In this document: one piece after another, positions 2,066 through 30,037 of the stretch
Layout of the letters: each line of letters begins with the position of its first letter
Position numbering within the stretch: the stretch's first letter is position 1
Assembly (NCBI GenBank): GCA_963843975.1
Contig: CAWJMG010000001.1
Location: forward strand, 180,001 to 212,000
Length of the DNA stretch: 32,000 bases
Origin: an uncultured Actinomycetes bacterium
GTDB lineage: Bacteria; Actinomycetota; Actinomycetes; S36-B12; CAIYMF01
Reading direction: 5' to 3'
Position numbers and translations under genes: made by a program
The notes under the pieces: model-generated
The model's input: the letters and a program-made list of their open reading frames with translations, nothing else
Database searches by the model: none
What the model was told of the DNA's origin: nothing

Positions 2066-3328
2066 TCAGCAGAGCTCGGCGGGCCAGGCCTTGTAGCCGG
2101 TCTCGGTGGGCCACGTGCTGATCAGCAGGTAGGGGATGCCGTCGACCGAGCCGATCCAGTACTGGTCGGGTGCTCCCGCGTAGCCGATGGGCACGTGCTC
2201 CGAGGACACGTACGCGCCGGTGGCCGCGCGGTCGAAGCTGCGCAGCACCTCGGCGGCAGCCTCGTTGCGCGTCCGCCCTTCGCCTTCGTGACCACCGGCG
2301 AAGTCGGCCAGGCCGCTGTAGTGGCAGCTGTACTCGGACAGCTCACCCGGCCACCAGAAGCCCCGGGGGTCGACGACCGTCACGGTGGCGGCGGGTCCGC
2401 GCGCTGCATCGTCGGCGGGCACGTAGCACGACAGCGTGAGCGGGCCCGGAGGGAACTGGCGCGTCCAGGTGGTCGGTGCCGCCGGCAGGGTGTCGCCGCC
2501 GCTGGTGCCGCCGAACGGGCTCGACGTCGCCTGGTACGCCAGATAGGCGCCCTTCGGCAGGGTGCTGGAGACACGCAGGAGCACACCGGAGCGCTGCGCG
2601 GCGACGGTGTCGCCGGACACCGTGATCCCCTCCGCCGAGCACGTCACCTCGAGCACAGCCTCCGCACCGGTCGGTGCCGTCACCGGCGTCGTGGTCGGCG
2701 CGGGCTCGGGTGCCGCCGACCGCTGCAGGACGACGAGAGGCGACCCGCGGTCGTTCATGAGCGTGAGCGAGTCGGCGCCGCCGCTGAGCGTTGCCGAGGT
2801 CGTGGTGACGAGGGCGCCCATGAGCTGGTCGTACGGGCAGAACTCGTAGGTGATAGGGCCCGTGCGTCGGGCTTCGAACGCCCCGGAGGAACGGACGATG
2901 AACTCGCCGGACCGGGGCAGGCAGGAGCCGGTCACCCCCCACACCGATCGTCCGTCGACCAGGCTGAACGTCACCGTCCGTGCCGGCGGCTGCGTACCGG
3001 TCGAGGGCACCGGCCAGGTGTCGTCCACGACGGCCCAGGTACCGAGGACCTGGTCGACCGAGGTCACCAGCTGCGGCGACGGTGGTGCGACGGAGACCGA
3101 GTCCGTCGGGTCCGCCGGAAGCACGTGCGTCCCGGTGACACGCGGGAAGAGGCCGAGGCCGAGGGCACTGACGAGGGCGAGGACTCCGACGACCGACCCC
3201 ACGGTCGCGGCGACGCGGATGCGATGGCGGCGGCGTCCGCCGCGCAGGACGGCGTCGAGGTCGATGCGGTCGACGCCGGGGGTTGCGACGGCGACGGCGA
3301 ACCTCTCGTGCAGGTCGGTGTCGTTCAC
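2066..3328 (-). CDS. Single-pass membrane protein coupled to the ECF sigma factor; ectodomain with a META-like (HslJ-type) segment
   Basis: 420-aa ORF with a GTG start at 3328 that overlaps the sigma stop codon (GTGA). GGAGGAGG lies 4 nt upstream. It has a short cytoplasmic N-terminus, then a TM segment (VAATVGSVVGVLALVSALGLGLF). The segment LGTWAVVDD...TVTFSLVDGRSVWGVTGSCLPRSGEFIV...TYEFCPYDQLMGALV...SLTLMNDRGSPLVV follows the META-domain pattern as I remember it. The C-terminal half is Cys-containing and of unknown function. Confidence 0.7.
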   Translation of the reverse strand: MNDTDLHERFAVAVATPGVDRIDLDAVLRGGRRRHRIRVAATVGSVVGVLALVSALGLGLFPRVTGTHVLPADPTDSVSVAPPSPQLVTSVDQVLGTWAVVDDTWPVPSTGTQPPARTVTFSLVDGRSVWGVTGSCLPRSGEFIVRSSGAFEARRTGPITYEFCPYDQLMGALVTTTSATLSGGADSLTLMNDRGSPLVVLQRSAAPEPAPTTTPVTAPTGAEAVLEVTCSAEGITVSGDTVAAQRSGVLLRVSSTLPKGAYLAYQATSSPFGGTSGGDTLPAAPTTWTRQFPPGPLTLSCYVPADDAARGPAATVTVVDPRGFWWPGELSEYSCHYSGLADFAGGHEGEGRTRNEAAAEVLRSFDRAATGAYVSSEHVPIGYAGAPDQYWIGSVDGIPYLLISTWPTETGYKAWPAELC

Positions 3329-3846
3329 AGCGCCTCCTCCGGCGTGGTGACGTGGTCGGTATCTGGCTCGAGCGCCGCGCGCAGGGCGTCGAGGCCGCGA
3401 CTGGCCTGGGAGCGGACGTTGCTGGCGGACGTGCCGAGGATCTGGGCCGTCTGCTCGATGGACAGGTCCTCCCAGTAGCGCAGCACCAGCACCGCGCGCT
3501 GCCCCTTCGGCACCTGGTGAAGCGCGGTCATGAGCTGGTCGCGGTCGCCGTCAGCTGGATGGGCCTGACCGTCGGCGACGTCGGGCAGGTCGGCCTCCGG
3601 CCGCTCCCGGCGCGAGGGCCGACGCCGGTGGTCGAGGTAGAGGTTCACGAGGATCTTGCGGGCGTACGGCGCGGGATCGCCCGCGGCCGAGACGCGCGGC
3701 CAGACGCCGTACAGGCGGGTGAGCGCGTCCTGGACGAGGTCGTCGGCGAGGTACCAGTCGCCCGACAGCAGGTACGCCGTCGTCCGCAGGCCGTCGCGGC
3801 TCGTCGCCACCCAGCCCACGAAGTCCGCCTCCGCACCCTGCCTCAC
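3325..3846 (-). CDS. ECF (sigma-70 family, group 4) RNA polymerase sigma factor
   Basis: 173 aa. Region 2-like segment DLVQDALTRLY...YARKILVNLYLDHRRR and region 4 HTH QRAVLVLRYWEDLSIEQTAQILGTSASNVRSQASRGLDALR. GTG start at 3846 with GGAGGA 7 nt upstream. Confidence 0.9.
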   Translation of the reverse strand: MRQGAEADFVGWVATSRDGLRTTAYLLSGDWYLADDLVQDALTRLYGVWPRVSAAGDPAPYARKILVNLYLDHRRRPSRRERPEADLPDVADGQAHPADGDRDQLMTALHQVPKGQRAVLVLRYWEDLSIEQTAQILGTSASNVRSQASRGLDALRAALEPDTDHVTTPEEAL

Positions 3847-4093: not shown

Positions 4094-4927
4094 ATGACCT
4101 CGGCTCGTCGCTGGACCCTTGCTGCCGCCGCTCTGTCGTGCGCCACCATGCTGACCTCCTGCGGGAGCTCGGCACCGGAAGGCCCGAAGCTCGTGTGGTC
4201 GGACGAGTTCGCCGGCGCGGCCGGTGCGGCACCGGACGCGACGAGCTGGAAGCCCGTCTCCGGCGGCGACGGCTGGGGCAACGGCGAGCTCCAGTGCTAC
4301 ACGGACTCGCGTGAGAACAGCATCGTCGACGGCAAGGGCTACCTCGTCATCTCGGCCCGACCGACGCCTGGCCACGCCTGCGCCGACGGGAAGTACAACG
4401 ACTTCACCTCGGCCCGCCTCATCACCCAGGGCCTGCGCAGCTTCCAGTACGGCACGTTCGAGATGCGCGCCAAGGTGCCCACCGGCGTCGGCGCCTGGCC
4501 GGCGTTCTGGGCGCTCGGGCAGGACCACGAGACGGCGGGCTGGCCTGCCTCGGGCGAGATCGACGTGACCGAGGTGCTCGGCCGCGAGCCGACCATCACC
4601 CACGGCTCGGTGCACGGGCCGAAGGCCGACGGATCGCCGTTCACCCTCACCGGCCAGCGGGTACTGCCCGCCGACCTCGGCACCGGCTTCCACGTCTACT
4701 CGACGACGTGGACCCGCGACGGCATCTCCTTCGCCATCGACGGCGAGGAGTACCAGCGCGTCACGCGTGCCGAGGTGGAGGCGCAGGGCCGATGGGTGTT
4801 CGACCAGCCGTTCTACCTGCTGCTCAACGTCGCCGTCGGCGGCCGGTGGCCCGGGCCGCCCTCAGCGAGCACCACCTGGCCGCAGCAGATGGTCGTCGAC
4901 TACGTGCGGGTGTACGCCGACCGCTGA
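4094..4927 (+). CDS. GH16-family beta-glucanase (laminarinase-like), predicted lipoprotein
   Basis: Inside ORF 3947..4927. ATG at 4094 is preceded by GGGAGA. Signal peptide with lipobox MTSARRWTLAAAALSCATMLTSC. GH16 catalytic motif E-x-D-x-x-E is seen as GEIDVTE. Flanking GH16 blocks are present: WPAFWALG, LLLNVAVGG, VDYVRVY. Confidence 0.9.
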   Translation: MTSARRWTLAAAALSCATMLTSCGSSAPEGPKLVWSDEFAGAAGAAPDATSWKPVSGGDGWGNGELQCYTDSRENSIVDGKGYLVISARPTPGHACADGKYNDFTSARLITQGLRSFQYGTFEMRAKVPTGVGAWPAFWALGQDHETAGWPASGEIDVTEVLGREPTITHGSVHGPKADGSPFTLTGQRVLPADLGTGFHVYSTTWTRDGISFAIDGEEYQRVTRAEVEAQGRWVFDQPFYLLLNVAVGGRWPGPPSASTTWPQQMVVDYVRVYADR

Positions 4928-6520
4928 GGTCTCCAGCACGCGCTCGCCGAGATTGCGCAGGTCGACGACCGTCTCGGCCGCGGTGCGGCCCGTGCGGGTC
5001 GCCAGGACGACGCCGACGAACGTCACCATGACCGCAGCGTTCACCGCGGCCCAGAACAGCATGGGCAGCGAGAGCCGGTCGGTCACCACAGAAGACGCCA
5101 GGCACGCGACGGCGACGACGCCGATGACCATGTGCGGCAGGATCATCGCGATCGGCGTGCGGTCGCGCTGACCCTCGCCCTTCGGCGTCACCTTGAAGAC
5201 CAGGCGCTTCTGCCGCAGCACTCCGATCGTCGCGAGCAGGTAGACCGGTGCCGTCACGACCGCCATGAAGCGGCCCGCCAGATGCAGGCCGCGGTCCCTG
5301 GACGGGTCGGGGTTGAACCGCTGGAGCCACGACGCGACGAGCTGACGCGCCACGACCAGCGGCATGACCCACAGCAGCATCTCCACGAGACCTACGTCGG
5401 CGGGCGTGATGCCGGTGGCGAAGTACAGGACCAGGAGCACGAGCCCGACCGCCGTGGCGATGCCCGAGAAGTAGTGCTGCTGGAGCGACACGTAGAGCGC
5501 AGCCTGCCGCCGGCTCATCTCCTTCACGAGCGCAGGCGTGTGCCAGCGCAGGATGTCCATGCAGCCGAAGGCCCAGCGCGTCTGCTGGTTGAAGTACGCC
5601 TGCCACGTCTCCGGTCCCTCGCCGATCGCGAGCGGCACGGGCACGTAGCGACTGCGCCATCCGGCCGCGTGCATGCGCATGCCTGTGAGCAGGTCCTCGG
5701 TGAGGTGGCCGGCGTACAGGCCGACCTCGCGCAGGGCGGCGACGCGGACCACGTGGTTCGCGCCGATCATGTTGGAGTGCCCGCGCGAGGCGAGCCCGCG
5801 CAGCAGGGGGCCGTAGAAGGCGTACTGCTGCTGGGATGCACCCCGGGCGACGAACGACTGGTCGCCGTTGCCGTAGACCTGCGGGGTGCCCACGAAGCCG
5901 ACCGTCGGGTCGTCGAAGTGACCGAGGGTCCGCGTCAGGAAGTCGCGCGACGGCACGAAGTCGGTGTCGATCTGCGCCACGACGTCGTACTCGTCGCCGA
6001 AGGCGTCGTACCACGCGTTGTGGTTGCCGCCCTTGGTGCGTGCCGTGAACGGGCCGGCCACGAGGTTGTAGCGCCGCACGCCGGCGCGGCTGAAGTAGCG
6101 GACGCCGAGCTCCTCGCACAGCAGCCGGACCTCGTCCACGCCGCCCTCGTCGAGCACCCACGTGTCGTGCGCGTAGTCGGCCGCCTGCATCGCAGGCAGC
6201 GTCACGCGCAGGAGGTCGAGCGGCTCGGACGACGGCACGAAGGTCGTGATGAAGGCGACGCGGAGCCCGGCGGCGGGTGCCGGCGGCTCCTCCTCCACCT
6301 TCATGCCCCACGCCACGACCCAGGTGAACGCGTCCATGAAGAGCCGGTGCCCGAACACCAGGGTCAGGAGCACGAAGAGGCCCACGTCGACCACGTGCCA
6401 CCAGCCCTGGAAGCTGGCGCCGACGTGCTCGGGCCGGAACCACCAGCCGAAGAAGACGACGAGGGAAGCGACCGCCAGCGCGAGCAGCGCGGAGTACTGG
6501 ATGCGTTCGCTGCGGGTCAT
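4862..6520 (-). CDS. Processive family-2 glycosyltransferase, cellulose/curdlan-synthase-like (GT2-A)
   Basis: Inside ORF 4862..6670. ATG at 6520 (MTRSERIQYSALL...) with GGAG upstream, and its start overlaps the stop of the upstream acyltransferase (ATGA). Motifs seen: VLDEGG, TKGGNHN, QIDTDF (DxD), LTEDLLTG (TED), QQTRW (QxxRW), FKVTPKG. Multiple TM segments flank the catalytic domain. 552 aa. I saw no PilZ-like motif. Confidence 0.9.
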   Translation of the reverse strand: MTRSERIQYSALLALAVASLVVFFGWWFRPEHVGASFQGWWHVVDVGLFVLLTLVFGHRLFMDAFTWVVAWGMKVEEEPPAPAAGLRVAFITTFVPSSEPLDLLRVTLPAMQAADYAHDTWVLDEGGVDEVRLLCEELGVRYFSRAGVRRYNLVAGPFTARTKGGNHNAWYDAFGDEYDVVAQIDTDFVPSRDFLTRTLGHFDDPTVGFVGTPQVYGNGDQSFVARGASQQQYAFYGPLLRGLASRGHSNMIGANHVVRVAALREVGLYAGHLTEDLLTGMRMHAAGWRSRYVPVPLAIGEGPETWQAYFNQQTRWAFGCMDILRWHTPALVKEMSRRQAALYVSLQQHYFSGIATAVGLVLLVLYFATGITPADVGLVEMLLWVMPLVVARQLVASWLQRFNPDPSRDRGLHLAGRFMAVVTAPVYLLATIGVLRQKRLVFKVTPKGEGQRDRTPIAMILPHMVIGVVAVACLASSVVTDRLSLPMLFWAAVNAAVMVTFVGVVLATRTGRTAAETVVDLRNLGERVLETSAVGVHPHVVDDHLLRPGGAR

Positions 6521-8619
6521 CCGGAGGTCTCCTGTCGTGCGGCCGCCCGGAGGGTCGGGGCGAGCATGGGCGCGAGCGTGGTCGAGAACGTGTTCGAGAG
6601 GTGGCTGTCGTCGCGGTAGACGAGCTCGTTGCCGACGATGACGGGGCAGGCCTCCGGCGAGCACAGCCACGAGAGCGGCTCGATCATGGGGAAGCCTGCG
6701 GCCTTCGCCGCACGTCCCACCTGCCGGTGCCGATCCGTGTAGAGCGCGGAGCCGTGATACGCGTCAGCCCTCGAGACCTGGCAGGCACGGACGTCTGCGA
6801 GGTTGGCCGCGACGCAGGTCGGCACGTCACCGCTCGGGTACGGCGTGTCCCGGATCAGCTCGACGCGGCTGCCCGCCTGCCTCAGCTTCTCGAGCGTGAC
6901 GACCGTCTGCTCGGCCCACGTCTCGTTCGAGACGAGACGGCCGGGGACGGAGTCGCTCTGGCTGACGAGGACGAGGTCGGGCTTCAGGGCGGCGATGCGC
7001 TCGAGAGTCTGCTCCCGCCACGTCGTGCATTCGGTGTAGTCGCGCTTGAGGGTGGGATTGACCAGCGTGACGTCGGCGACCGGGCACGCGGCCTTGGTCA
7101 GCGACACGACCTTCCAGTGCTGGGCCTTCGCCTCGGTGTCGAGGGCGCCCATCCACTGCTGCGCGTGCGAGTCGCCGAAGAGCACCACGGTGCGTGCGCC
7201 TGCTGGGTCGCCGTACTCGCACGCTCCCTGATCGATCTGCAGGAAGCCGAGATGGCAGCCCGACTCGGTGATGGCGACGTCGCGGCGCGCCGACTGCAGC
7301 TCCGGAGTCAGGTTGCCGGGGACGGCCGGGTTGTCGGCCGCGACGACGAGTGCCTCGGCCAGAGCGGCGGGGCGGCTCGAGGTCAGGGTCAGCGGAGCCG
7401 CCGGTGCGCCGTTGCCGGCGACGGCGGGTGCAGTGAGCAGCACAGCTCCGGCAGCGATCGCGGAGGCACCTGACAGCAGCGCGCCGCGGCGCAGCCACGG
7501 CCCTGTGCGCAGCGAGGTGCGCAGGGCGGGTCGCTCGACGGCGACGTAGGTGAGACCCGCGAACCAGAGGGCGATCACGCACATCTCGAGGTTCCGGATC
7601 CACGAGAGCTCGAGGCCCAGCACCGCCGGTGCGAGCAGGAGAACCGGCCAGTGCCAGAGGTACCAGCCGTAGGACACCCGCCCGATCCACTGCACCGGGC
7701 GATGGTCGAGGACCAGGTCGGCACTCCGGCGCGGCGCGCCCCCGCAGCCGCCCGCGATGACGAGCACGGTGCCGAGCACCGGCGCGAGCGCAGCGATGCC
7801 CGGGAAGGGCGTGGCGTCGTCGTAGCGCAGCGCGCTGCCGATCACGAGAGCGAGACCGACCCACGTGGCGGGTGCGCGCAGCCAGGCGGGCACAGTCGAG
7901 AGCCGGGTGATCGCGAGGGCGACGAGCGCCCCGATCCCGAACTCCCAGGCGCGCGTGAGTGCGGAGAAGTACGCCGTCGGCGCGGACGACGCGGTCAGCG
8001 ACACCGACAGCAGCAGGCTGCCCACCACCACGAGCACCACCAGCGCCGCCGTCAGCCAGCGGCCGGTCCGCCGGGCCACGGCGACGCCGGCCAGCACGAG
8101 CAGCGGCCAGGCGAGGTAGAACTGCTCCTCGACGGCCAACGACCAGAAGTGCTGCAGCGGCGACGCCGTCTCGCTCGCCGCGAGGTAGTCGACGCCCTGG
8201 TTCGCCAGGTGCACGTTGACGGCGTACCCGGAGGTCCAGATGGCGTCCCAGGCTGTCGCGCGCAGCGCGAGCGCCGGGCCCCAGAAGCGTGCGACCACCA
8301 GCGTCACCACGACCACGACGACCGCTGCGGGCAGCAGCCGTCGGATGCGCCGGGCGTAGAAGGCACCGAGCGCGAGCCGACCGGTGCTCGAGATCTCGCG
8401 CACGATGTGGCCGGTGATGAGGAAGCCGCTGATCACGAAGAAGACGTCGACGCCGACGTAGCCGCCCGTGATGCCCGGCACGCCCGCGTGGTAGAGCACG
8501 ACGAGCAGCACGGCGACGGCGCGCAGTCCCTGGATGTCGGCGCGGAAGCGCCTTGTGCCCTCGACGACGTCGAGGTCGTTGGCGGAGGTCGCTGTCGACG
8601 AGGCGATCGTGGCCGTCAT
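6517..8619 (-). CDS. Acyltransferase-3 (OafA/OatA-type) membrane O-acyltransferase fused to a C-terminal SGNH domain
   Basis: 700 aa. AT3 signature RADIQGLRAVAVLLVVLYH ... VDVFFVISGFLI, with about 10 TM segments. The C-terminal SGNH block I is VVLFGDSHAQQW and block V is DDSH. ATGA overlaps occur at both ends (8616-8619 and 6517-6520). Confidence 0.9.
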   Translation of the reverse strand: MTATIASSTATSANDLDVVEGTRRFRADIQGLRAVAVLLVVLYHAGVPGITGGYVGVDVFFVISGFLITGHIVREISSTGRLALGAFYARRIRRLLPAAVVVVVVTLVVARFWGPALALRATAWDAIWTSGYAVNVHLANQGVDYLAASETASPLQHFWSLAVEEQFYLAWPLLVLAGVAVARRTGRWLTAALVVLVVVGSLLLSVSLTASSAPTAYFSALTRAWEFGIGALVALAITRLSTVPAWLRAPATWVGLALVIGSALRYDDATPFPGIAALAPVLGTVLVIAGGCGGAPRRSADLVLDHRPVQWIGRVSYGWYLWHWPVLLLAPAVLGLELSWIRNLEMCVIALWFAGLTYVAVERPALRTSLRTGPWLRRGALLSGASAIAAGAVLLTAPAVAGNGAPAAPLTLTSSRPAALAEALVVAADNPAVPGNLTPELQSARRDVAITESGCHLGFLQIDQGACEYGDPAGARTVVLFGDSHAQQWMGALDTEAKAQHWKVVSLTKAACPVADVTLVNPTLKRDYTECTTWREQTLERIAALKPDLVLVSQSDSVPGRLVSNETWAEQTVVTLEKLRQAGSRVELIRDTPYPSGDVPTCVAANLADVRACQVSRADAYHGSALYTDRHRQVGRAAKAAGFPMIEPLSWLCSPEACPVIVGNELVYRDDSHLSNTFSTTLAPMLAPTLRAAARQETSG

Positions 8620-14859: not shown

Positions 14860-15474
14860 ATGACCGAGGGCCAGATCAGCGTCGACCCGCTGGGTGAGCC
14901 GGATCCGGAGCGCCCGGACATCTACATGCGCGTCACCCTCAAGAGCGGGCTGCACCTCGTGATCCGGCCGCTGAACCCCGAGGACCGCGCGGCCCTCGCC
15001 GACGGGTTCGTCGGTCTCTCCGACCGCAGCAAGTACCTGCGCTTCCTCACCGGCAAAGGCGTGCTGTCCTCGCGCGGCCTCGACAAGCTGGTCGACCAGG
15101 TCGACCAGCACGACCACGTCGCGCTCGCTCTCTGGTGGACGCGGCACACGCAGGCAGACGTGCTCCTCGGCGACGCCCGCTTCATCCGCCTCCCGGCCGA
15201 CCCGGAGTGCGCCGACGTCGCCGTCACCATCGCCGACGACATCCAGGGCGAGGGCGCCGGCACCCTCATGATGCTCGCGCTCGCGCGGCGCGCCCACGAC
15301 GAGGGCATCCGCCGATTCTCCGCCGTCATCTCGCCCGAGAACGAGGCGTCCCACCGCATGATGCTGGCAGCCGGCACGGTGATCCGGGACGAGTACTCCG
15401 ACGGACTCCGCGAGGTCGAGGTCGAGCTCGGCGAGCCGGTGCAGATCCCCGACGGCGTACCGCCCCGCTACTAG
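14860..15474 (+). CDS. GNAT-family N-acetyltransferase, Pat-type (protein-lysine acetyltransferase-like) domain
   Basis: Inside ORF 14428..15474; ATG at 14860. IRPLNPEDRAALADGFVGLSDRSKYLRFL resembles the S-x-x-S-R-Y-L-R-F-F block of Pat-like GNATs. Acetyl-CoA loop-like DIQGEGAGTLM. The last 8 codons lie in the left direct repeat of the insertion. Confidence 0.85.
   Translation: MTEGQISVDPLGEPDPERPDIYMRVTLKSGLHLVIRPLNPEDRAALADGFVGLSDRSKYLRFLTGKGVLSSRGLDKLVDQVDQHDHVALALWWTRHTQADVLLGDARFIRLPADPECADVAVTIADDIQGEGAGTLMMLALARRAHDEGIRRFSAVISPENEASHRMMLAAGTVIRDEYSDGLREVEVELGEPVQIPDGVPPRY
15448..15472. repeat. Left copy of the 25-bp direct repeat (cccgacggcgtaccgccccgctact)
   Basis: Read directly; 23/25 identical to 17392..17416. 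It encodes the GNAT C-terminus (P)DGVPPRY. Confidence 0.85.
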
Positions 15475-17354
15475 TCCCCCAAAGCCTTGCCGAGCGTCAC
15501 GCGAAGAGCATCAGCCCCACCAGGGGACACAGCCTCGACGATCCAATCCACGTGAAGTGATTTCGCGTCCAGCATGGAGTTCAACGCGACCAAGTCGTCC
15601 AGACGGAGTGGCTCATAGCACGACAACAGAGCTATCGCTTCGGCCCGAAACTCGTCTGAATCAGAGTCGTCGCGAAGCGTGCGCAGCGAATCTAGAGCGC
15701 CGCCATCTGGCCCAGACTCCTTCAAGGTGAGTGCCGCTTGCATCAGTCGATGTAGGTCACTCGGCGAGGTCTTGCTGATGCGGCTGAGGTGACGGCGCGC
15801 CCCATCAAGCTTCTGTTGCGCGATCAGCGAGGCGACAAGCGCTGCTCGAAGTGGCGGGTCATTCTGCTGACGCTTGAGCGCGCGCTGCGCGTAGTAGGCC
15901 GCCGCGTGAAACTCGGCAAGGTGACACTTTAGGAGAGCGACAAGCCGCAGCAGAGAATGCCGATGCGGATCAAGCAAGACGGCCCGCTCGGCGATAGCTC
16001 CGGCCGTCTGCAAGTCCCCGAGGTATTCTGCGTAGGCGTGTGCGGCCATTCGCAAGACTTCGACATCAGGTCCTTGCGAGCCAACGAGGTCATCGAGGGT
16101 GGCCCATCCGTCGGCCGCCGTCGGATCTGTCGACAGCCTCGATAGCGCTCTTCGCGCCGCCGCGATCTGGTTGGTCCCATCCACGCAGGCGATGTCATGC
16201 CAGCCAATCGCTTCCGCATGGCGGCCCATCGCGTCAAGAAAAGTGGCGTAGCCCGAGGCAGCGACGGAGGCTGCGAACGTGCCGGGTTCGTTCGCAGCAG
16301 TCGAATACAGACTCTCCGCCTCTTCGATCGAACCGTGCCCTCGGAGGAGGAGATCAGCCAACGTCACCTGAGCGTGTGCATTCTTCGGGTCAACCTCCAG
16401 CGCTCGACGAAGCACCTCAACCGCACCTACCTCGTCTTTGTCGGCGAGGAAGGCGCCGAAGTTTGCCAGCAGAGCACTGTCGTTCGGTCGAAGGCGAACC
16501 TGGGCTTTGTAATCCTTGACCGTCCCAGGCAGCGAACTGAAGCCGGAACCGATGAGCTGTGGCCTCTTCGGCCGCCCCTCTGCGTCCATGGCTGGCTTGA
16601 GCCGAATGCCCATTGCCTCAAGTTGGGCAAGGAAGTCCGGCGGCTGGTAGGCGGCGTCGTGTTCGCCTTCTAGGTAGGCCTTCGAGCTTCCGTGTCCGGT
16701 CGCGCGCACCGACCCGACGGAACAACCTCGGCTTACCGTCGGTGTCCGTTCGCTCACCGAGGCATTGACCTCGGCCAAGCGTTCGAACACTTCGTCGTCA
16801 GATGGTCCGGTTCTGAGCAAGCGCTGGAGGGACTCGATCTCTTCGGCCGTTAGGGCGTTCCGCGCGCCGGTAGCGACGAGTGTGCCTGACTTTGGCCTAA
16901 CGCTAGTGACAGTGAAGTGCGTGTCGGCGACGTCCCGCGCTACGACCCGGCCGTCCACAAACGACTCGAAGTTCGATACGAGCGAAACGACGATCTGCGT
17001 ACCGGCTACTGATCCGACGACGAAGGAATGCCGCCGCTGCACTGGGTCAGAAACGCGGGAAAGGGCAGCATCTGCTCGGGATTGCAGCAAACTCAGCAAC
17101 GCCCCCAACGACGTCACCGCGTTCGCCTCGACAACGACACCAGCCAGCCAATCGCCGATGGCTCGGCCGTCTAGAACCCCTAGACCCGTAACCCCAATCC
17201 GGGCGTGCACAGACAGGGTCTGGACGGTGGCGAGCTTGTACGCATCCTGCATTGGCGCACCAGAGCCGTATGCCGAGAGCCTGAAGTCGCAAGACATGAA
17301 CATCGAGTTCTCGTCGGCAAGGACCATCACCAGGGTCACGCCCACAGTCTCCAT
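15471..17354 (-). CDS. Fusion protein: N-terminal proteasome-beta/HslV-like (Ntn-hydrolase-fold) domain plus C-terminal TPR-repeat array; function unknown
   Basis: 627-aa ORF filling the insertion. The N-terminal ~230 aa align by eye to the Thr1/Asp17/Lys33 proteasome pattern (T7, D23, K40). Residues ~290-620 have TPR-like periodicity (e.g. ALLANFGAFLADKDEVGAVEVLRRALEVDPKNAHAQVTLADLLL). No Walker A motif. Alternative in-frame GTG starts occur at 17345 and 17339; the latter would give Met-Thr-Leu-Val. Confidence 0.8.
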   Translation of the reverse strand: METVGVTLVMVLADENSMFMSCDFRLSAYGSGAPMQDAYKLATVQTLSVHARIGVTGLGVLDGRAIGDWLAGVVVEANAVTSLGALLSLLQSRADAALSRVSDPVQRRHSFVVGSVAGTQIVVSLVSNFESFVDGRVVARDVADTHFTVTSVRPKSGTLVATGARNALTAEEIESLQRLLRTGPSDDEVFERLAEVNASVSERTPTVSRGCSVGSVRATGHGSSKAYLEGEHDAAYQPPDFLAQLEAMGIRLKPAMDAEGRPKRPQLIGSGFSSLPGTVKDYKAQVRLRPNDSALLANFGAFLADKDEVGAVEVLRRALEVDPKNAHAQVTLADLLLRGHGSIEEAESLYSTAANEPGTFAASVAASGYATFLDAMGRHAEAIGWHDIACVDGTNQIAAARRALSRLSTDPTAADGWATLDDLVGSQGPDVEVLRMAAHAYAEYLGDLQTAGAIAERAVLLDPHRHSLLRLVALLKCHLAEFHAAAYYAQRALKRQQNDPPLRAALVASLIAQQKLDGARRHLSRISKTSPSDLHRLMQAALTLKESGPDGGALDSLRTLRDDSDSDEFRAEAIALLSCYEPLRLDDLVALNSMLDAKSLHVDWIVEAVSPGGADALRVTLGKALGD

Positions 17355-17391
17355 GCAACCCGACGCCAGGGTAGAACTTGAGCGAAACCGT

Positions 17392-17416
17392 CCCGTCGGC
17401 GTACCGCCTCGCTACT
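17392..17416. repeat. Right copy of the 25-bp direct repeat (cccgtcggcgtaccgcctcgctact)
   Basis: Read directly. In the GNAT-equivalent frame it reads (P)VGVPPRY followed by TGA at 17416-17418. This is why the antisense ORF 16765..17418 ends in GVPPRY, like the GNAT. Confidence 0.85.
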
Positions 17417-17494
17417 GACCTCCCGCACCTCGACCTGGCGGGGCTCCATACTTCCTGCCGGGACGACCGCGCGGGCGGTCGCGAGGAGGACCGC

Positions 17495-18331
17495 ATGAGC
17501 ACGCAGCCCGAGGCCGCCACCACCGAGGTCGCCGCAGCGCCCGAGCCGATGATCGACAACATCGGCTACGAGGTCTTCATCGCCGCCCTGTCGATCCTGT
17601 CGATCGTCAACCTCGTGCTCATCTTCTTCGTCCGCGACGATTCGCTCGACATCGTGCTGCAGGCGATGAACCTGATCCTGTCGCTCGTCCTGTTCTTCGA
17701 CTTCCTCTACCGGATGCGCAAGGCGCCGTCGAAGTCGACGTACTTCTTCCGGGAGTACGGCTGGGCGGACCTCGGCGCCTCGCTGCCGCTCCCCCAGCTG
17801 AAGGTGCTGCGCATCTTCCGGCTCATCAAGGTCTGGCGGCTCTTCCGCCTGTACGGCGCGAAGCGGCTCCTCACGGCGCTCGTCAAGGACCGCGCGGAGA
17901 CCGCCCTCTACCTGCTGCTGCTCATCGCCGTCCTGGTGCTGGAGTTCGGCAGCCTTTCGATGCTGCGGCTGGAGCAGAGCGTCGAGGGTGCCAACATCAC
18001 GACCGCCTCCGACGCGATCTGGTACGTCCTCGTCACCATCTCCACCGTCGGCTACGGCGACCAGTTCCCCGTGACGAACGCCGGCCGCGTCCTGGGCACG
18101 GCGATCATCGTGCTCGGCGTCGGCATCTTCGGCACGCTCACCGGCTTCCTGGCCAACGCGTTCATCGCCCCGCGCCGGACCGAGGACGAGATCGCTGCCG
18201 ACGAGGCCGCGGAGGAGGCCGAGGTCGAGCGCGAGGTCGACATCGCCACGAAGGTCGACGACCTGCACCGCATGCTCGCGGAGCAGCAGCAGACCATCGC
18301 GCGCCTGGAGACGCTTCTCAGCCAGCGCTGA
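17495..18331 (+). CDS. Voltage-gated (6-TM, KvAP-like) potassium channel
   Basis: Inside ORF 17378..18331; ATG at 17495 preceded by GAGGAGGA. S4-like segment LRIFRLIKVWRLFRLYGAKRL has basic residues at every third position. Selectivity filter TVGYGD. The C-terminal tail is acidic and coiled-coil-like. Confidence 0.9.
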   Translation: MSTQPEAATTEVAAAPEPMIDNIGYEVFIAALSILSIVNLVLIFFVRDDSLDIVLQAMNLILSLVLFFDFLYRMRKAPSKSTYFFREYGWADLGASLPLPQLKVLRIFRLIKVWRLFRLYGAKRLLTALVKDRAETALYLLLLIAVLVLEFGSLSMLRLEQSVEGANITTASDAIWYVLVTISTVGYGDQFPVTNAGRVLGTAIIVLGVGIFGTLTGFLANAFIAPRRTEDEIAADEAAEEAEVEREVDIATKVDDLHRMLAEQQQTIARLETLLSQR

Positions 18332-26845: not shown

Positions 26846-27442
26846 ATGACGCAGGTGGGGCAGGACAGCCGCGCGCAGGTGGGGGGCCCTGGCGCGCTAC
26901 TTGAGGTACGGATCAACGCGCGGGTGCAGCCCGTGCACCGAGGCGACCGCTACGAGGACCCGCTCGCGTTCCTGCTGGAGCGCAGCTTCCCCGGCAGCGC
27001 GGTGACCGGCGGCGGCACGCTCGTGTCCGGCGACGGCGAGCCGCTCACGTGCGCGATCGAGGCCGACGTCGTCGGCGACCACGGCGAGATCGCCGACGCC
27101 GTGATCACTCTGCTCGAGGCGCAGGGGGCGCCGCGAGGGTCGAGCCTCGCGGTCGAGCGCGGCGACGCGCGCTTCTTCGGCTCGACCGAGGGCCTCGCGC
27201 TCTACCTCGACGGCACCGGTCTCGCGCCCGCGGTGTACGCCGAGAACGACGTCAACATCCTGCTCGACCACCTGCACATCGCCCTCGCGGAGGTCGGCAG
27301 CCTGCAGTCGTTCTGGGAGGGCCCGACCGACACGGCGCTCTACCTGTACGGACCGTCCGCCGACGCTATGCGCGAGGCGCTCGCCGACCTGCTCTCCACC
27401 CACCCGCTGGCGGAGAACCACCGGCTCGTCCCGCTCACGTGA
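26846..27442 (+). CDS. Hypothetical protein
   Basis: 198-aa ORF with normal high-GC coding character (acidic, not Arg/Pro-rich junk). I recognise no motif. Its 3' end overlaps the convergent gene by 8 bp. Confidence 0.55.
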   Translation: MTQVGQDSRAQVGGPGALLEVRINARVQPVHRGDRYEDPLAFLLERSFPGSAVTGGGTLVSGDGEPLTCAIEADVVGDHGEIADAVITLLEAQGAPRGSSLAVERGDARFFGSTEGLALYLDGTGLAPAVYAENDVNILLDHLHIALAEVGSLQSFWEGPTDTALYLYGPSADAMREALADLLSTHPLAENHRLVPLT

Positions 27443-28265
27443 GCGCGAACCACCGGGCCAGCGCGGCCGACGTACGGAAGCCTCCGCACACGAGGTCGTA
27501 GTCGTACTGGTCGTCCCACCACTGGGCGAGCACCGCGCGCCCGCCCTGGAACGACTGCGACGGCGCGCAGCGGTTCCACGCGACGTCGGCCCCGCGCGCG
27601 CCGGCCGAGCGCCACTCCGGGTAGCCCGTCGGACCGCCGGTGCCGATGATCGAGCCCCACATGTACGGGCTCGAGTAGAAGCCGACGCGGTAGCCGGCGG
27701 CGCGGTACTCACGCACGACGCCGCGCAGGAACGCGCGGTTCATCTGCTGCGACGTCGTCCAGTCCCACGGCGGGTAGTGCTCGACGTCGATCCACACGAT
27801 CGGCGTGCGGAAGCCGATCGAGCGCATGGTCCACACGTTGAAGCGCGCCTCGGCCACGCCCGCGTTCGACAGCCGACCGAGCAGCGTGGTCGTGGCATAC
27901 GGGCCGGAGCCGCCGTACTGGTGCAGCTGATCCTTGGTCGGGAACGTCGTCATCGCGTACGCCGCCACGCGGATGCCGTGGGCGCGCACGGACGCGAGGT
28001 GCGTCTCGATGCACGGGTTGCGGTGGAAGCCCGGCCCGTTGGTGAGGCCGATGACCGTGAACCCGGTCGTGGTCGGCGGCATCGGCTTGCCGAGGCCCAT
28101 GCGACCCGGGATGCCGACGTCGGTGGGGCACTCCGGCCACGAGATGTCGTAGCCGCGGTAGGGGTTGTCGGTGGCCGCTCGCGCGGTCGAGGCCGGGCCG
28201 AGCAGCGCGACGCCGACGGCGAGCAGCAGCGCGGTGACGGCCGACGTCGTCCTGCGCAGTCTCAT
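27435..28265 (-). CDS. Secreted glycoside-hydrolase-fold protein (GH25-like or Rv2525c/DUF1906-like)
   Basis: Inside ORF 27435..28406; ATG at 28265. Signal peptide MRLRRTTSAVTALLLAVGVALLGPASTARA. Mature start ATDNPYRGYDISWPEC, then FTVIGLTNG...NPC...VAAY...VWIDVE, resembling GH25/DUF1906 TIM-barrel families as I remember them. Confidence 0.6.
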   Translation of the reverse strand: MRLRRTTSAVTALLLAVGVALLGPASTARAATDNPYRGYDISWPECPTDVGIPGRMGLGKPMPPTTTGFTVIGLTNGPGFHRNPCIETHLASVRAHGIRVAAYAMTTFPTKDQLHQYGGSGPYATTTLLGRLSNAGVAEARFNVWTMRSIGFRTPIVWIDVEHYPPWDWTTSQQMNRAFLRGVVREYRAAGYRVGFYSSPYMWGSIIGTGGPTGYPEWRSAGARGADVAWNRCAPSQSFQGGRAVLAQWWDDQYDYDLVCGGFRTSAALARWFALT

Positions 28266-28400
28266 GGCCACGAACCTCACGCTAGGCGAGCGCTGCGTCG
28301 GGTGTCGCGACGGCATCCGCCAGGCGAGTCGCATCGCCGAGCTGACGGCTGCGTTTGCCTGCGACTGAACACTTCTCGGCGATTCGTCATGTGGAAACCT

Positions 28401-28429
28401 TTGCACGTTTCGAACATGTGTTCTATTCT
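28401..28429 (+). promoter_or_regulatory. Near-consensus sigma-70-type promoter (TTGCAC-17 nt-TATTCT) for the HNH/DUF222 gene; spacing predicts a leaderless mRNA
   Basis: Read directly: -35 at 28401-28406 and -10 at 28424-28429. The ATG at 28436 begins 7 nt after the -10 hexamer, and there is no SD sequence. Confidence 0.55.
28410..28425. promoter_or_regulatory. LexA SOS box (Cheo-box type): TCGAACATGTGTTCTA
   Basis: Matches GAAC-N4-GTTC and 14/16 positions of the mycobacterial consensus TCGAAC-N4-GTTCGA. It sits in the promoter spacer and overlaps the -10 by 2 nt. Confidence 0.7.
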
Positions 28430-28435
28430 TGCCCC

Positions 28436-30037
28436 ATGTCCTTCACCTCCTCCACCGACGTGCCGGGCGCTGGCGCGTCCGCGGTGGAGGTGCTCCTCGC
28501 CGGCCTGCTGGCAGAGGTCGAGACGGGGATCCTCCAGGGCCTGGAGTCCGACTACGCCCACCCCTCCGCGCAGCCGTCCGCCGAGCCGACGCGGGAGCCG
28601 GCGCGCCAGCCCGACGAGCGGGCACAGCACCTGGCCGCCCAGCGCACCGCCCGTGCTGCCGCGGCTCGCGCTGAGCTCGAGGCGCGGTTCGCCCCTGGTG
28701 GTGACGCGGCGGCGTTGTGGGCGCTTGCCCAGGGTGACGACGCCGCCCGCGACGCCGTGCTGCTGCAGTCCGCGCCCGAGCTTCTCGCCGGCCTCGCCGC
28801 GGCGGATCGTGAGCTGCACCGTGCCGCAGGGCGGCGCTTCGCCACCGTCGCCGCCCTCGCCGGCCCGGTCCCGACCTCGGGCCGATCCGGGTCCGAGCGC
28901 GACCGGCACCTCGCCCACGAGATCGGCATCGCCGTCGGCATCTCCAAGGACGCCGCCCAGCACCTCATCCGCCAAGCCCAGGCGCTGTTCGGGGAGTACG
29001 CCCCGTTCGGGCACGCTCTGCTCGACGGGACCGTCTCGGAGTGGCATGCCCGCACGCTGATCGAGCAGACGGCCAACCTCACCGACACCCCCGCCCGCGA
29101 AGCGATCGGGCACCTCGCGCTCCCCTACGCGCAGACCCTGGTCGTGGCGGAGTTCCGCCGCGAGCTCCAAGCCCTCATCGAGTCGTTGGACCCTGAGGCG
29201 GTGCGCCGCCACGAGCAGGCGCACGCCGAGCGGGGCGTCTACGCCCGGCGCGGCAAGGACGGCATGTCGTTCCTCGGGCTCACCCACGACACCCCGGTCG
29301 TCGACGCGATCATGGCCGCTCTCGTCCAGGACGGGCAGGCCATCGTCGATCAGCGGGAGCGGGACAACGACCAAGCGGCTGCCCAGAACGTCGAGCCGGT
29401 CTGGGACGACGCAGACCTGCGGGCCGAAGCCGCCCGCGCCGATGCCCTCATGGCGCGGGTGCTGGGCACGGTCACCCCCGACGGCGAGGTGTCGTTCGAC
29501 CGGGCCGCCGCCACGGTCATCACCACCGAGATCGTCATGGACCACGCCACCGCCGCCGGCCTCGCCGACCGGGTCGCGCTCATCAACGGCCAGCCCGCCC
29601 CGGCCCGCGTCGCCCGCGAGCACGCAGCATGGTCCACGTTCGTGCGCCGCGTCGTCGTCGACGACGTCGACGGGTGGGTCAAGGACTACGGCGACACGGT
29701 CCGCGTCCCACCAGCCCTGCGCCGGCACTGCTTCGCCCGCGACGGCGGCTGCCGGTCACCCGGCTGCACCCGCAGGGCACTGCGGTTCCTGCAGCTCGAC
29801 CACGCCGAGGAGCATCCGCACGGCCGGACCAATGCCGGCAACTGGGGCGCCCTGTGCGTGGAGTGCCATCAGCGCAAGACCGCCGGCCTCCTCGACATCA
29901 CCGACTCGATGCCCGACGGATCCGCCACCTTCCACACCGCCTACGGACAGACGGTGCTCATCCCCGCACGCCCCTACCTCCCCCGACCACCCGCCGTCAC
30001 CGCACTCGCCGTCGAGATCGACCAGCCCCCGTTCTAA
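28436..30037 (+). CDS. DUF222 / HNH endonuclease protein (13E12-repeat-family type)
   Basis: Inside ORF 28355..30037; ATG at 28436. The long alpha-helical N-terminal region is typical of DUF222. C-terminal HNH: CRSPGCTRRALRFLQLDHAEEHPHGRTNAGNWGALCVECHQRKT. Confidence 0.85.
   Translation: MSFTSSTDVPGAGASAVEVLLAGLLAEVETGILQGLESDYAHPSAQPSAEPTREPARQPDERAQHLAAQRTARAAAARAELEARFAPGGDAAALWALAQGDDAARDAVLLQSAPELLAGLAAADRELHRAAGRRFATVAALAGPVPTSGRSGSERDRHLAHEIGIAVGISKDAAQHLIRQAQALFGEYAPFGHALLDGTVSEWHARTLIEQTANLTDTPAREAIGHLALPYAQTLVVAEFRRELQALIESLDPEAVRRHEQAHAERGVYARRGKDGMSFLGLTHDTPVVDAIMAALVQDGQAIVDQRERDNDQAAAQNVEPVWDDADLRAEAARADALMARVLGTVTPDGEVSFDRAAATVITTEIVMDHATAAGLADRVALINGQPAPARVAREHAAWSTFVRRVVVDDVDGWVKDYGDTVRVPPALRRHCFARDGGCRSPGCTRRALRFLQLDHAEEHPHGRTNAGNWGALCVECHQRKTAGLLDITDSMPDGSATFHTAYGQTVLIPARPYLPRPPAVTALAVEIDQPPF

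What the first reader, a model, noticed from the sequence alone, without database searches (positions are those of the whole stretch)
15448..17416. Single-gene, lower-GC insertion bracketed by 25-bp direct repeats that duplicate the GNAT 3' end, with no recombinase
cccgacggcgtaccgccccgctact (15448-15472) and cccgtcggcgtaccgcctcgctact (17392-17416) are 23/25 identical. Both encode ...GVPPRY followed by a stop codon. The right copy is followed by TGA and high-GC DNA that looks like native flank. The left copy runs into lower-GC DNA. That is the signature of site-specific integration into the 3' end of a gene with reconstitution of the reading frame, as seen for attL/attR. At the left junction a single CTAG (15471-15474) supplies the GNAT stop (TAG) on one strand and the cargo gene stop on the other. 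The 1.9 kb between the repeats is visibly less GC-rich, uses rare codons, and holds exactly one gene with no integrase, transposase or terminal inverted repeats. The mobilisation mechanism is therefore unexplained; the element is either mobilised in trans or a decayed remnant.
Basis: seen in the sequence. Interest (0 to 1): 0.85.

Follow-up and report, generated by a model that had tools for sequence, protein, structure and literature searches.

The report
Integrase-less single-gene island after GNAT
A 1.9-kb piece of foreign-looking DNA with one gene (a proteasome-like protease fused to TPR repeats) sits exactly at the stop codon of an acetyltransferase gene between two copies of a 25-bp target that relatives carry once and unoccupied, so the insertion is real; it is most likely the stripped-down remnant or passenger of an actinobacterial integrative element, which is a known kind of element carrying an uncharacterised cargo.

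Summary
The 25-mers at 15448-15472 and 17392-17416 are 23/25 identical and occur nowhere else in the window. They bracket 1,919 bp that is compositionally deviant: GC 0.62 vs 0.72, GC3 0.69 vs 0.91-0.98, tetranucleotide distance about 12 sd from host windows. Three relatives carry the precise empty site (Longivirga aurantiaca, one MAG, one metagenome contig), with a single 25-mer, TGA, then the ion-channel gene. The insert is one intact gene with no recombinase, no terminal inverted repeats and no hairpins. Its product is an N-terminal proteasome-fold Ntn hydrolase (Thr1/Asp17/Lys33-34 equivalents conserved family-wide) fused to a TPR array; Pfam lacks the N-domain. Homologues in other actinobacterial contigs form similar single-gene GC troughs. 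Two sit at the same end of related AICE backbones. One is a chimera with a truncated integrase inside a 2.2-kb remnant flanked by 49-bp tRNA-Lys repeats. None has the window's repeats or any conserved flank. Best reading (about 0.55): a CIME-like, att-flanked remnant or passenger of a tyrosine-recombinase integrative element. The recombinase itself was not found, and a local target duplication followed by drift is not excluded. This is a new member of a known kind. The cargo family is the more interesting part.

The parts
14860..15474 (+). GNAT acetyltransferase gene (204 aa), the insertion target. Its last 8 codons and the T of the stop lie in the left repeat, and its stop is now TAG.
   Evidence: Pfam Acetyltransf_3/1. 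NCBIfam Pat-like, partial. 96%, 94% and 89% identical orthologues in L001, L002 and L017 end in TGA.
15448..15472 (+). Left 25-bp repeat (attL-like), identical 25/25 to the single copy in Longivirga aurantiaca.
15471..15474 (.). CTAG supplying both stop codons: GNAT TAG at 15472-15474 and cargo TAG on the minus strand at 15471-15473.
   Evidence: read directly from the sequence.
15473..17391 (.). Inserted DNA, 1,919 bp, absent from three relatives. GC 0.62.
   Evidence: BLAST of the window against L001 breaks at 15472/17392 and both pieces overlap the same 25 bp of L001. Alignment A1. Composition.
15471..17339 (-). Cargo gene, 622 aa from GTG 17339 (M-T-L...). The ATG at 17354 is probably not the start.
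   Evidence: ORF. The database copy P0001 is 622 aa. 97 of 107 homologues start Met-Thr/Ser at this position. GGAGA at 17348-17352 lies 8 nt upstream of the GTG (read).
16530..17339 (-). Cargo N-domain (aa 1-270), a proteasome-fold Ntn hydrolase with T2, D18 and K35.
   Evidence: AF2 pLDDT 94.9. Foldseek against PDB gave 685 hits at E<=1e-3, with 20S proteasome subunits and Anbu at the top. Conservation. No Pfam match.
15474..16529 (-). Cargo C-terminal all-helical TPR array (aa ~271-622).
   Evidence: Pfam TPR_19, TPR_14 and TPR_17. Full-length AF2 model, pLDDT 92.3.
17340..17391 (-). The 52 bp of insert DNA upstream of the cargo start. It holds the ribosome-binding site, so any promoter must overlap the repeat or host DNA.
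   Evidence: Read. No sigma-70-type match.
17392..17416 (+). Right 25-bp repeat (attR-like). It differs at position 5 (A>T) and position 18 (C>T) and is followed by the native TGA and native intergenic DNA.
   Evidence: Positions 5 and 18 are invariant in the four native alleles.
17417..18331 (+). Native flank: a 78-bp intergenic region and the ion-channel gene (17495-18331), contiguous with GNAT in relatives.
   Evidence: Pfam Ion_trans..

Best explanation
The 1.9-kb segment is a CIME-like element, meaning an att-flanked insert that has no integration or transfer genes of its own. It was placed at the stop codon of the GNAT gene by a site-specific (tyrosine-type) recombinase encoded elsewhere. 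The most likely vehicle is an actinomycete integrative and conjugative element (AICE) that carried the gene as end-of-element cargo. Recombination between a 25-bp attB (the last 8 GNAT codons plus the T of the stop) and a near-identical attP duplicated the 25-mer. If the left copy is the native one, the crossover lay in the last 7 bp (CGCTACT). In that case the GNAT reading frame stays intact with TGA changed to TAG, and the ion-channel gene keeps its whole upstream region. The backbone (int, xis, rep, tra) was later lost, either by deletion or by excision through a secondary site, or it never co-resided because the cassette travelled as a passenger by accretion. The intact cargo gene stayed behind. 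Shown here: a precise insertion, target duplication, empty sites, foreign composition, absence of a recombinase, and the cargo fold and its contexts. Inferred: that a recombinase did it, that the vehicle was an AICE, and how the backbone was lost. The cargo is probably an N-terminal-threonine protease whose TPR array binds a partner or trigger, and it is plausibly a conflict or defence gene. That function is inferred from fold, conserved residues and neighbourhoods only.
For: The insertion is precise and relatives have the empty site. L001, L002 and L017 carry one 25-mer followed by TGA and the ion-channel gene. The repeats are imperfect (23/25), direct, much longer than any transposase target duplication, and unaccompanied by terminal inverted repeats. 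They sit at the 3' end of a gene, as with ICE/AICE att sites. The CIME definition and the accretion model are taken from PMC5704250, which also cites a Streptomyces case. In 2 of 8 full-length homologue loci the homologue sits at the same end of an AICE backbone: NUDIX or IMPase, DUF5919, FtsK-like Tra, RepSA, and in L016 also HTH_17 and an integrase. The two backbones are related, with Tra 43% identical, and the cargo homologues are 31% identical. L007 shows the proposed decay path directly. It holds a 2.2-kb unit bounded by perfect 49-bp repeats of the tRNA-Lys 3' half. Inside is a family member whose N-domain is fused to the C-terminal two-thirds of a tyrosine integrase, next to a second integrase. 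L024 and L022 place homologues beside a small tyrosine recombinase and beside DDE transposases. The cargo gene is intact with all family-invariant residues, so it is a retained gene and not debris.
Against: No recombinase that could act on this site was found in the 32-kb window. The att core gave no match in IMG/VR or in the JGI metagenome contigs or in any fetched locus other than the empty sites. The insert holds no integrase fragment or any other backbone remnant, and there is no room for one. The cargo stop overlaps one repeat and the start lies 52 bp from the other, which a random deletion would rarely produce. That layout also leaves no space for lambda-type arm sites outside the coding sequence. 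The right repeat agrees with the window's own allele at the three positions that vary among relatives. It differs only at two positions that are invariant in coding copies. A local duplication followed by drift predicts exactly that pattern. No other family locus has significant flanking repeats or conserved flanks.
Confidence: 0.55

Rival explanations
1. Local target duplication without a site-specific recombinase. A staggered double-strand break about 25 nt apart at the GNAT stop captured a foreign DNA fragment, for example by Ku/LigD end joining, which actinobacteria possess (general knowledge). Fill-in duplicated the window's own 25 bp, and the non-coding right copy then acquired two substitutions.
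For: The right copy matches the window allele at the positions that vary among relatives and differs only at two positions constrained in the coding copies. There is no recombinase, no inverted repeats, no hairpins and no conserved ends in the family. Two changes in 25 bp is compatible with the roughly 11% divergence among these lineages.
Against: No known process gives 25-bp staggered breaks at a gene end. A randomly captured fragment would rarely be trimmed to exactly one complete gene, with its stop codon on the junction and 52 bp upstream of its start. The family's repeated association with integrases and AICEs is left unexplained.
Confidence: 0.15
2. A purpose-built minimal cassette. On this reading a 1,944-bp circle, consisting of one gene plus a 25-bp simple recombination site placed directly after its stop codon, is integrated and excised in trans by a host or helper simple-site tyrosine recombinase. 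It would be analogous to integron cassettes or Xer-dependent modules, but with a different site.
For: The unit is extremely compact: about 96% coding, with the site abutting the stop codon. The 25 bp is roughly the size of a simple recombination site, and the 7-bp identical block CGCTACT has the length of a tyrosine-recombinase overlap region (general knowledge). Homologues are single-gene GC troughs in 7 of 8 loci.
Against: There is no second copy of the site or of the cassette anywhere. No other family member has flanking repeats or a conserved site. The site has no dyad symmetry beyond GGCG-TAC-CGCC and no structure beyond chance.
Confidence: 0.12
3. Campbell-type single crossover by general, short-homology recombination between the chromosome and a circular foreign DNA that happened to carry a 25-bp look-alike of the GNAT end.
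For: The topology (direct repeats of the shared segment, with mismatches sorted to one side) is what a single crossover gives.
Against: A 25-bp segment with two mismatches (longest exact run 12 bp) is at or below the minimal substrate for RecA-type recombination (general knowledge). A chance 23/25 match to the exact 3' end of a gene is very unlikely (one search found 0 chance matches in shuffles).
Confidence: 0.08
4. The gene is ancestral at this position and was lost from the relatives by deletion between the repeats. The low GC would then be a property of the gene family and not a sign of recent arrival.
For: The window, L001 and L002 form an unresolved trichotomy, with 124/125/103 informative sites. 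The family is low-GC everywhere.
Against: It requires at least two or three independent precise losses (L001, L002, L017), and the outgroup L003 lacks the gene. It still needs an earlier insertion to create the repeats. Tetranucleotide and codon usage are far from the host's.
Confidence: 0.05

Closest known systems
CIMEs (cis-mobilizable elements), e.g. CIME19258/CIME302 at the fda 3' end in Streptococcus thermophilus and the cis-mobilised toxicogenic region of Streptomyces (as reviewed in PMC5704250; details of the named examples are from memory)
   Same: Flanked by attL/attR-type direct repeats at the 3' end of a gene. No integrase, excisionase or transfer genes. The empty site is intact in relatives.
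   Different: This element is only 1.9 kb with a single gene and no backbone debris. The helper ICE/AICE and its integrase are unknown. Mobilisation has not been shown. The repeats differ at 2 of 25 positions.
AICEs of the pSAM2 type (int-xis-repSA-traSA-...-pif/Nudix)
   Same: Homologues of the cargo sit at the Nudix/DUF5919 end of two such backbones (L016, L023). AICEs integrate at gene 3' ends and leave direct repeats.
   Different: None of the defining AICE genes is present in the window. Classical AICE targets are tRNA genes with identity segments of 40-110 bp (from memory). Here the target is a protein-coding gene and the repeat is 25 bp.
Integron gene cassettes
   Same: A single, tightly packed gene with a recombination site abutting its stop codon and no recombinase of its own.
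   Different: There is no attC-like imperfect palindrome, no GTTRRRY core at the boundaries, no intI/attI and no array. A 25-bp target duplication is not an integron feature.
Proteasome-like Ntn hydrolases (20S beta subunits, HslV, Anbu, BPH and the further homologues catalogued in PMC8665760)
   Same: The cargo N-domain has the fold. It also has Thr directly after Met, Asp at +16 and Lys at +33/34, all conserved across the family.
   Different: There is no sequence-level match to Pfam Proteasome or to any PDB chain. The domain is fused to a ~350-residue TPR array, which is hard to reconcile with a closed ring. Its closest structural relative is an uncharacterised Gordonia phage protein. Whether it equals the 'DAH' group of PMC8665760 could not be tested.

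Membership tests
CIME (cis-mobilizable element) | Bounded by attL/attR direct repeats at an integration target | tested here: met
   23/25 repeats at 15448-15472 and 17392-17416. Three relatives have a single copy at the empty site.
CIME (cis-mobilizable element) | Lacks integration and transfer genes | tested here: met
   The only gene is the proteasome-like/TPR protein.
CIME (cis-mobilizable element) | Its att sites are substrates of the integrase of a related ICE/AICE (excision, accretion, cis-mobilisation) | not testable with these tools
   No element with this att core was found in the window, in IMG/VR or in the JGI contigs. Testing needs the whole genome and an experiment.
CIME (cis-mobilizable element) | Derived from an ICE/IME by decay | tested here: inconclusive
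   There is no backbone remnant in the insert. However, family members lie on AICE backbones, and one lies in a decayed 2.2-kb att-flanked remnant.
AICE | int/xis, RepSA-type replication and FtsK-like transfer genes between the att sites | tested here: not met
   None is present in 15473-17391 or elsewhere in the window.
Integron gene cassette | attC imperfect inverted repeat with a GTTRRRY core at the boundary | tested here: not met
   The junction regions fold no better than shuffles (z 0.6-2.1). The boundaries read CGCTACT|AGTCC and AACCGT|CCCGTC.
Integron gene cassette | Located next to intI/attI or in a cassette array | tested here: not met
   The surroundings are housekeeping genes with no integrase.
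Xer/dif-dependent element (IMEX, pdif module) | Flanking 28-bp dif-like sites with two ~11-bp inverted arms around a 6-8-bp spacer | tested here: not met
   The only dyad in the 25-mer is GGCG-TAC-CGCC (read). The site is the coding 3' end of GNAT in all relatives. The dif consensus was recalled from memory.
DDE transposon / insertion sequence | Terminal inverted repeats, a transposase, and a short perfect target duplication | tested here: not met
   The best end-to-end inverted match scores 9 against a shuffle maximum of 10. There is no transposase. The duplication is 25 bp and imperfect.
Proteasome-type Ntn hydrolase (cargo N-domain) | Ntn (alpha-beta-beta-alpha) proteasome-subunit fold | tested here: met
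   AF2 pLDDT 94.9. 685 PDB chains at E<=1e-3, with proteasome subunits and Anbu at the top, TM 0.44-0.64.
Proteasome-type Ntn hydrolase (cargo N-domain) | N-terminal Thr nucleophile with Asp17 and Lys33 equivalents | tested here: met
   Thr/Ser at residue 2 in 106 of 107 homologues, and it is their own residue 2 in 97. D18 in 113/113 and K35 in 114/114. Spatial proximity in the model was not measured.
Proteasome-type Ntn hydrolase (cargo N-domain) | Sequence membership in Pfam Proteasome (PF00227) or similarity to solved proteasome homologues | tested here: not met
   No Pfam hit for 12 members at E<=1. A profile search against PDB sequences gave 0 hits at E<=10.
Proteasome-type Ntn hydrolase (cargo N-domain) | Proteolytic activity and ring assembly | not testable with these tools
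   Needs biochemistry.

The most novel reading that the evidence does not exclude
The element is not debris. On this reading it is a functional minimal mobile cassette, one gene plus a 25-bp simple site directly after its stop codon, that a recombinase encoded elsewhere inserts at and removes from the stop codon of a housekeeping gene. It would be an integron-independent gene-cassette system in Actinobacteria, carrying a previously unrecognised TPR-fused proteasome-like protease that acts in phage or mobile-element conflict.
Probability: 0.1. Interest if true: 0.7.

Novelty: new member of a known kind. Interest (0 to 1): 0.4.

Why it matters
As a mobile element it is a clean, well-delimited example, with exact junctions and three empty-site alleles, of an integrase-less att-flanked islet in a little-studied actinobacterial lineage. 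It is useful as a test case for how integrative elements leave single genes behind, but it is not a new principle. The cargo matters more. It defines a family of about 300 sequence clusters of proteasome-fold, N-terminal-threonine proteins fused to TPR arrays, absent from Pfam and annotated only as 'TPR protein'. The family recurs as low-GC single-gene troughs on or beside AICEs, integrases, transposases and defence genes, and it has a structural relative in a Gordonia phage. If it is an active protease triggered through its TPR domain, it would add a new effector type to bacterial conflict systems and another branch to the proteasome-homologue family.

Tried and rejected
- **Longer att homology.** Extension beyond the 25 bp is not significant in local or anchored global alignments against shuffles. 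An apparent protein-level similarity (VEL.E..P.GVPPRY) is therefore not supported.
- **Terminal inverted repeats.** None found.
- **Hairpins at the junctions.** None beyond chance on either strand. This rejects integron attC and HUH-type ends.
- **Rfam.** Nothing in the window.
- **Promoter and terminator scan.** Nothing.
- **tRNA genes as targets.** None in the window or in the empty-site loci.
- **Family-wide cassette ends.** No significant flanking repeats at 7 other homologue loci and no conserved upstream sequence.
- **att core pattern.** 0 hits in IMG/VR, 0 in the JGI metagenome contigs, and only the empty sites among the fetched loci.
- **Close relatives of the cargo.** The word-indexed search found only the protein itself. 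The exhaustive search was needed to find the family.
- **Cargo family on plasmids or phages.** No sequence match in PLSDB, INPHARED or IMG/VR.
- **Known defence systems and phage families.** PADLOC gave only a marginal TPR hit at E 0.015. PHROGs gave none.
- **Source contig.** The look-up of P0001 was not on record, so the rest of the genome could not be searched for a helper.
- **att sites of the L016 AICE.** No repeat of 18 bp or more was found within the 22 kb held, so whether the homologue lies inside that AICE's att boundaries is unresolved.
- **Gain versus loss by phylogeny.** The trichotomy is unresolved.
- **Assembly artefact.** Rejected because the two copies are not identical (longest exact run 12 bp), so they cannot be a k-mer overlap join.
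Full report
**Observation.**
They are the only matches in the 32-kb window at up to three mismatches, and none of 100 dinucleotide shuffles produced any. When the two flanks of the cargo gene are aligned, the repeat scores 19 against a shuffle maximum of 14. In the GNAT frame the left copy reads PDGVPPRY-TAG and the right copy PVGVPPRY-TGA. CTAG at 15471-15474 supplies both the GNAT stop and, on the other strand, the cargo stop.

The 1,919 bp between the repeats is compositionally deviant:
- GC is 0.621, against 0.719 +/- 0.016 for host windows of the same size (minimum 0.684).
- GC3 is 0.69, against 0.91-0.98 in neighbouring genes.
- Tetranucleotide distance is 0.486, against 0.196 +/- 0.023.
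- Codons used at under 0.3% in host genes make up 26% of the cargo, against 2.5% of host genes.

Homology between the two junctions stops at the 25 bp.

**It is a real, precise insertion.**
A scan of species-representative genomes with the GNAT protein found Longivirga aurantiaca (L001, GNAT 96% identical) and a Nanopelagicales MAG (L002, 94%). A metagenome scan added L017 (89%). In all three, GNAT ends ...GVPPRY-TGA (GEPPRY in L017) and is followed directly by the same 78-bp spacer and the ion-channel gene.

BLAST of the window against L001 gives two collinear blocks of about 90% identity. They break at 15472 and 17392, and both cover the same 25 bp of L001. Alignment A1 shows the same thing.

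The window, L001 and L002 are about equally distant from one another (88-89% identity, with 124/125/103 informative sites). The 78%-identical outgroup L003 also lacks the gene and carries two host-GC genes at the junction instead. A gain in the window lineage is therefore the economical reading, although the tree alone cannot prove it.

An assembly join is excluded because the copies are not identical.

**What is inside.**
The insert is filled by one ORF on the minus strand. The family alignment and a GGAGA 8 nt upstream place the start at GTG 17339, giving 622 aa beginning M-T-L. This matches the database copy P0001.

The C-terminal ~350 residues are TPR repeats. The first ~270 residues match nothing in Pfam, NCBIfam, PADLOC, PHROGs or PDB sequences.

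An exhaustive HMMER search shows that the N-domain belongs to a real family. It returned 295 cluster representatives at E<=1e-3, with the best only 46% identical. Most members share the same two-domain length of 560-650 aa; some are the N-domain alone.

AlphaFold models are confident, with pLDDT 92 for the full length and 95 for the N-domain. Foldseek places the N-domain among 20S proteasome subunits and Anbu, with 685 PDB chains at E<=1e-3.

The conserved residues fit the proteasome-type catalytic set:
- Thr or Ser directly follows the initiator Met in 106 of 107 homologues.
- Asp18 is present in 113 of 113.
- Lys35 is present in 114 of 114.

After Met removal these correspond to Thr1, Asp17 and Lys33/34. 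The cargo is therefore most likely an N-terminal-threonine hydrolase with a TPR binding array. Activity is inferred, not shown.

PMC8665760 catalogues many new proteasome homologues, including a 'distant actinobacterial' group with an unassigned C-terminal domain. I could not test identity with that group.

**No mobility function in or near the insert.**
The insert has no integrase or transposase, no terminal inverted repeats, no junction hairpins and no Rfam hit. The surrounding 30 kb is ordinary chromosome and is collinear with L. aurantiaca where DNA was available. It encodes an MFS transporter, a sigma factor, GH16, an acyltransferase, GT2, S15 and S58 peptidases, a deacetylase, GNAT, the ion channel, an ABC transporter, an SDR, 2-oxoglutarate dehydrogenase and a PolA-like protein.

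**Where the cargo family lives elsewhere.**
Ten homologue loci were read.
- *GC troughs.* In 7 of 8 full-length cases (the window plus seven other loci) the gene is a sharply bounded GC trough, 9-17 points below its flanks. This holds although members are highly diverged and share no flanking repeats and no upstream sequence. Low GC is therefore a family trait and is weak evidence of recent arrival on its own.
- *AICE backbones.* In L016 and L023 (the latter from Actinomadura) the gene sits at the same end of related AICE backbones. The order is homologue, NUDIX or IMPase, DUF5919, small ORFs, FtsK-like Tra, RepSA, and in L016 also HTH_17 and an integrase. Tra is 43% identical between the two.
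- *Recombinases and transposases.* L024 places a homologue beside a 304-aa tyrosine recombinase, a KAP NTPase and DUF4238. L022 places one beside two DDE transposases and an nSTAND NTPase. L014 has a NERD neighbour. In L008 an N-domain-only homologue lies between a helicase/toxin-antitoxin block and McrBC.
- *A decayed remnant.* L007 is the most telling. Perfect 49-bp repeats of the tRNA-Lys 3' half bracket 2.2 kb. That unit holds a family N-domain fused in frame to the C-terminal two-thirds of a tyrosine integrase, and another integrase lies next door. It is a decayed, att-flanked remnant in a tandem accretion.
- *Plasmids and phages.* The family is absent at sequence level from PLSDB, INPHARED and IMG/VR. 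Its best structural match among viral proteins is an uncharacterised Gordonia phage protein, with TM 0.67.

**Mechanism.**
[quoted passage not shown] I commit to this reading at about 0.55. On it, a tyrosine-type recombinase of an AICE-like element integrated the DNA at a 25-bp attB covering the last GNAT codons, and the backbone is now gone or was never resident.

If the left copy is native, the crossover lay in the final 7 identical bp, CGCTACT. The left copy is 25/25 identical to L. aurantiaca, and positions 5 and 18 are invariant in all four native alleles. This crossover position leaves GNAT intact with a new TAG and preserves the ion-channel upstream region.

Several points weigh against this reading:
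- No recombinase or second att site was found anywhere.
- The insert has no backbone remnant.
- The insert is trimmed to the gene with a precision that a random deletion would rarely achieve.
- The right copy agrees with the window allele at the three positions that vary among relatives and differs only at constrained ones. A local duplication followed by drift predicts this pattern.

The rivals are therefore kept: staggered-break capture (0.15), a purpose-built minimal cassette mobilised in trans (0.12), short-homology Campbell integration (0.08) and ancestral presence with loss in relatives (0.05).

**Verdict.**
As a mobile element it is a new member of a known kind (a CIME-like or decayed integrative element) and of moderate interest. 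The unannotated TPR-fused proteasome-like cargo family, and its habit of forming single-gene low-GC troughs on and near actinobacterial mobile elements, is the part most worth following up.

Noticed in passing
L007:4400-8570 (JGI Ga0597060_0020637): Perfect 49-bp direct repeats (4692-4740 and 6925-6973) are the 3' half of tRNA-Lys(CTT). They bracket a 2.2-kb decayed element. Its main ORF (P0158) is a chimera of the cargo-family N-domain (aa 1-170) and the C-terminal two-thirds of a tyrosine integrase. Integrase 3' ends precede both repeats, and a further integrase plus HTH_17 lies beyond the tRNA, which indicates tandem accretion.
   Followed up: yes
L009, L010, L014, L016, L022 and L023 (homologue genes) and window 15471-17339: The proteasome-like/TPR gene is a sharply bounded single-gene GC trough (gene GC 0.52-0.62, 9-17 points below flanks) in 7 of 8 full-length loci. 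This holds even next to AICE backbones of near-host GC, although members are at most 46% identical and share no flanks. The cause is unexplained: recurrent gene-only transfer, or mutation bias or selection on a fast-evolving gene.
   Followed up: partly
L016:10001-20153 and L023:7001-15917: Two related AICE backbones (FtsK-like Tra 43% identical) carry a family member at the same end, next to DUF5919 and a NUDIX or IMPase gene. The att boundaries of these AICEs could not be located in the DNA held.
   Followed up: partly
BFVD entry A0A142KAQ6 (Gordonia phage Nymphadora), matched to window 16530-17339: The closest structural relative of the cargo N-domain among viral proteins is an uncharacterised 289-aa actinophage protein (E 7e-14, TM 0.67, rmsd 2.8). 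It is closer than any proteasome subunit, although tblastn against phage genomes found nothing.
   Followed up: no
window 17339-17354: The longest ORF starts at ATG 17354, but the family alignment (Met-Thr start in 97 of 107 homologues) and a GGAGA 8 nt upstream indicate GTG 17339 as the true start. A free N-terminal Thr depends on this start.
   Followed up: yes
window 16765-17418 (+): A 217-aa ORF antisense to the cargo reads through the right repeat and ends on the native GNAT TGA (...NRPVGVPPRY*). It is probably a by-product of high GC and of the displaced GNAT tail, not a gene.
   Followed up: no
L003:6600-8300: In an 80%-identical relative the GNAT/ion-channel junction holds two host-GC genes, one phosphotransferase-like (minus strand) and one MarR-like (plus strand), and the GNAT C-terminus differs (...ITGPDPYEA). 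The junction is variable at deeper divergence, and the 25-bp target is confined to the closer relatives.
   Followed up: partly
L008:1-16627 (GCA_024449835.1 contig): An N-domain-only family member (208 aa) lies between a PhdYeFM/PIN toxin-antitoxin pair plus an MTES_1575/AAA_11-12 helicase block and an McrBC pair. This is a defence-island-like neighbourhood in a low-GC (0.45) host.
   Followed up: no
window 28355-30034 (+): This ORF encodes a DUF222 (13E12-repeat/HNH-type) protein, a family often linked to mobile DNA in actinobacteria. It is the only mobile-element-like gene seen in the window outside the insert.
   Followed up: no
window 2069-3328 (-), 4865-6440 (-), 26846-27439 (+), 27438-28406 (-): Four host-composition ORFs of 198-525 aa have no Pfam match at E<=1e-5. 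The first lies directly downstream of an ECF-type sigma-factor gene (3328-3846) and could be its anti-sigma partner.
   Followed up: no
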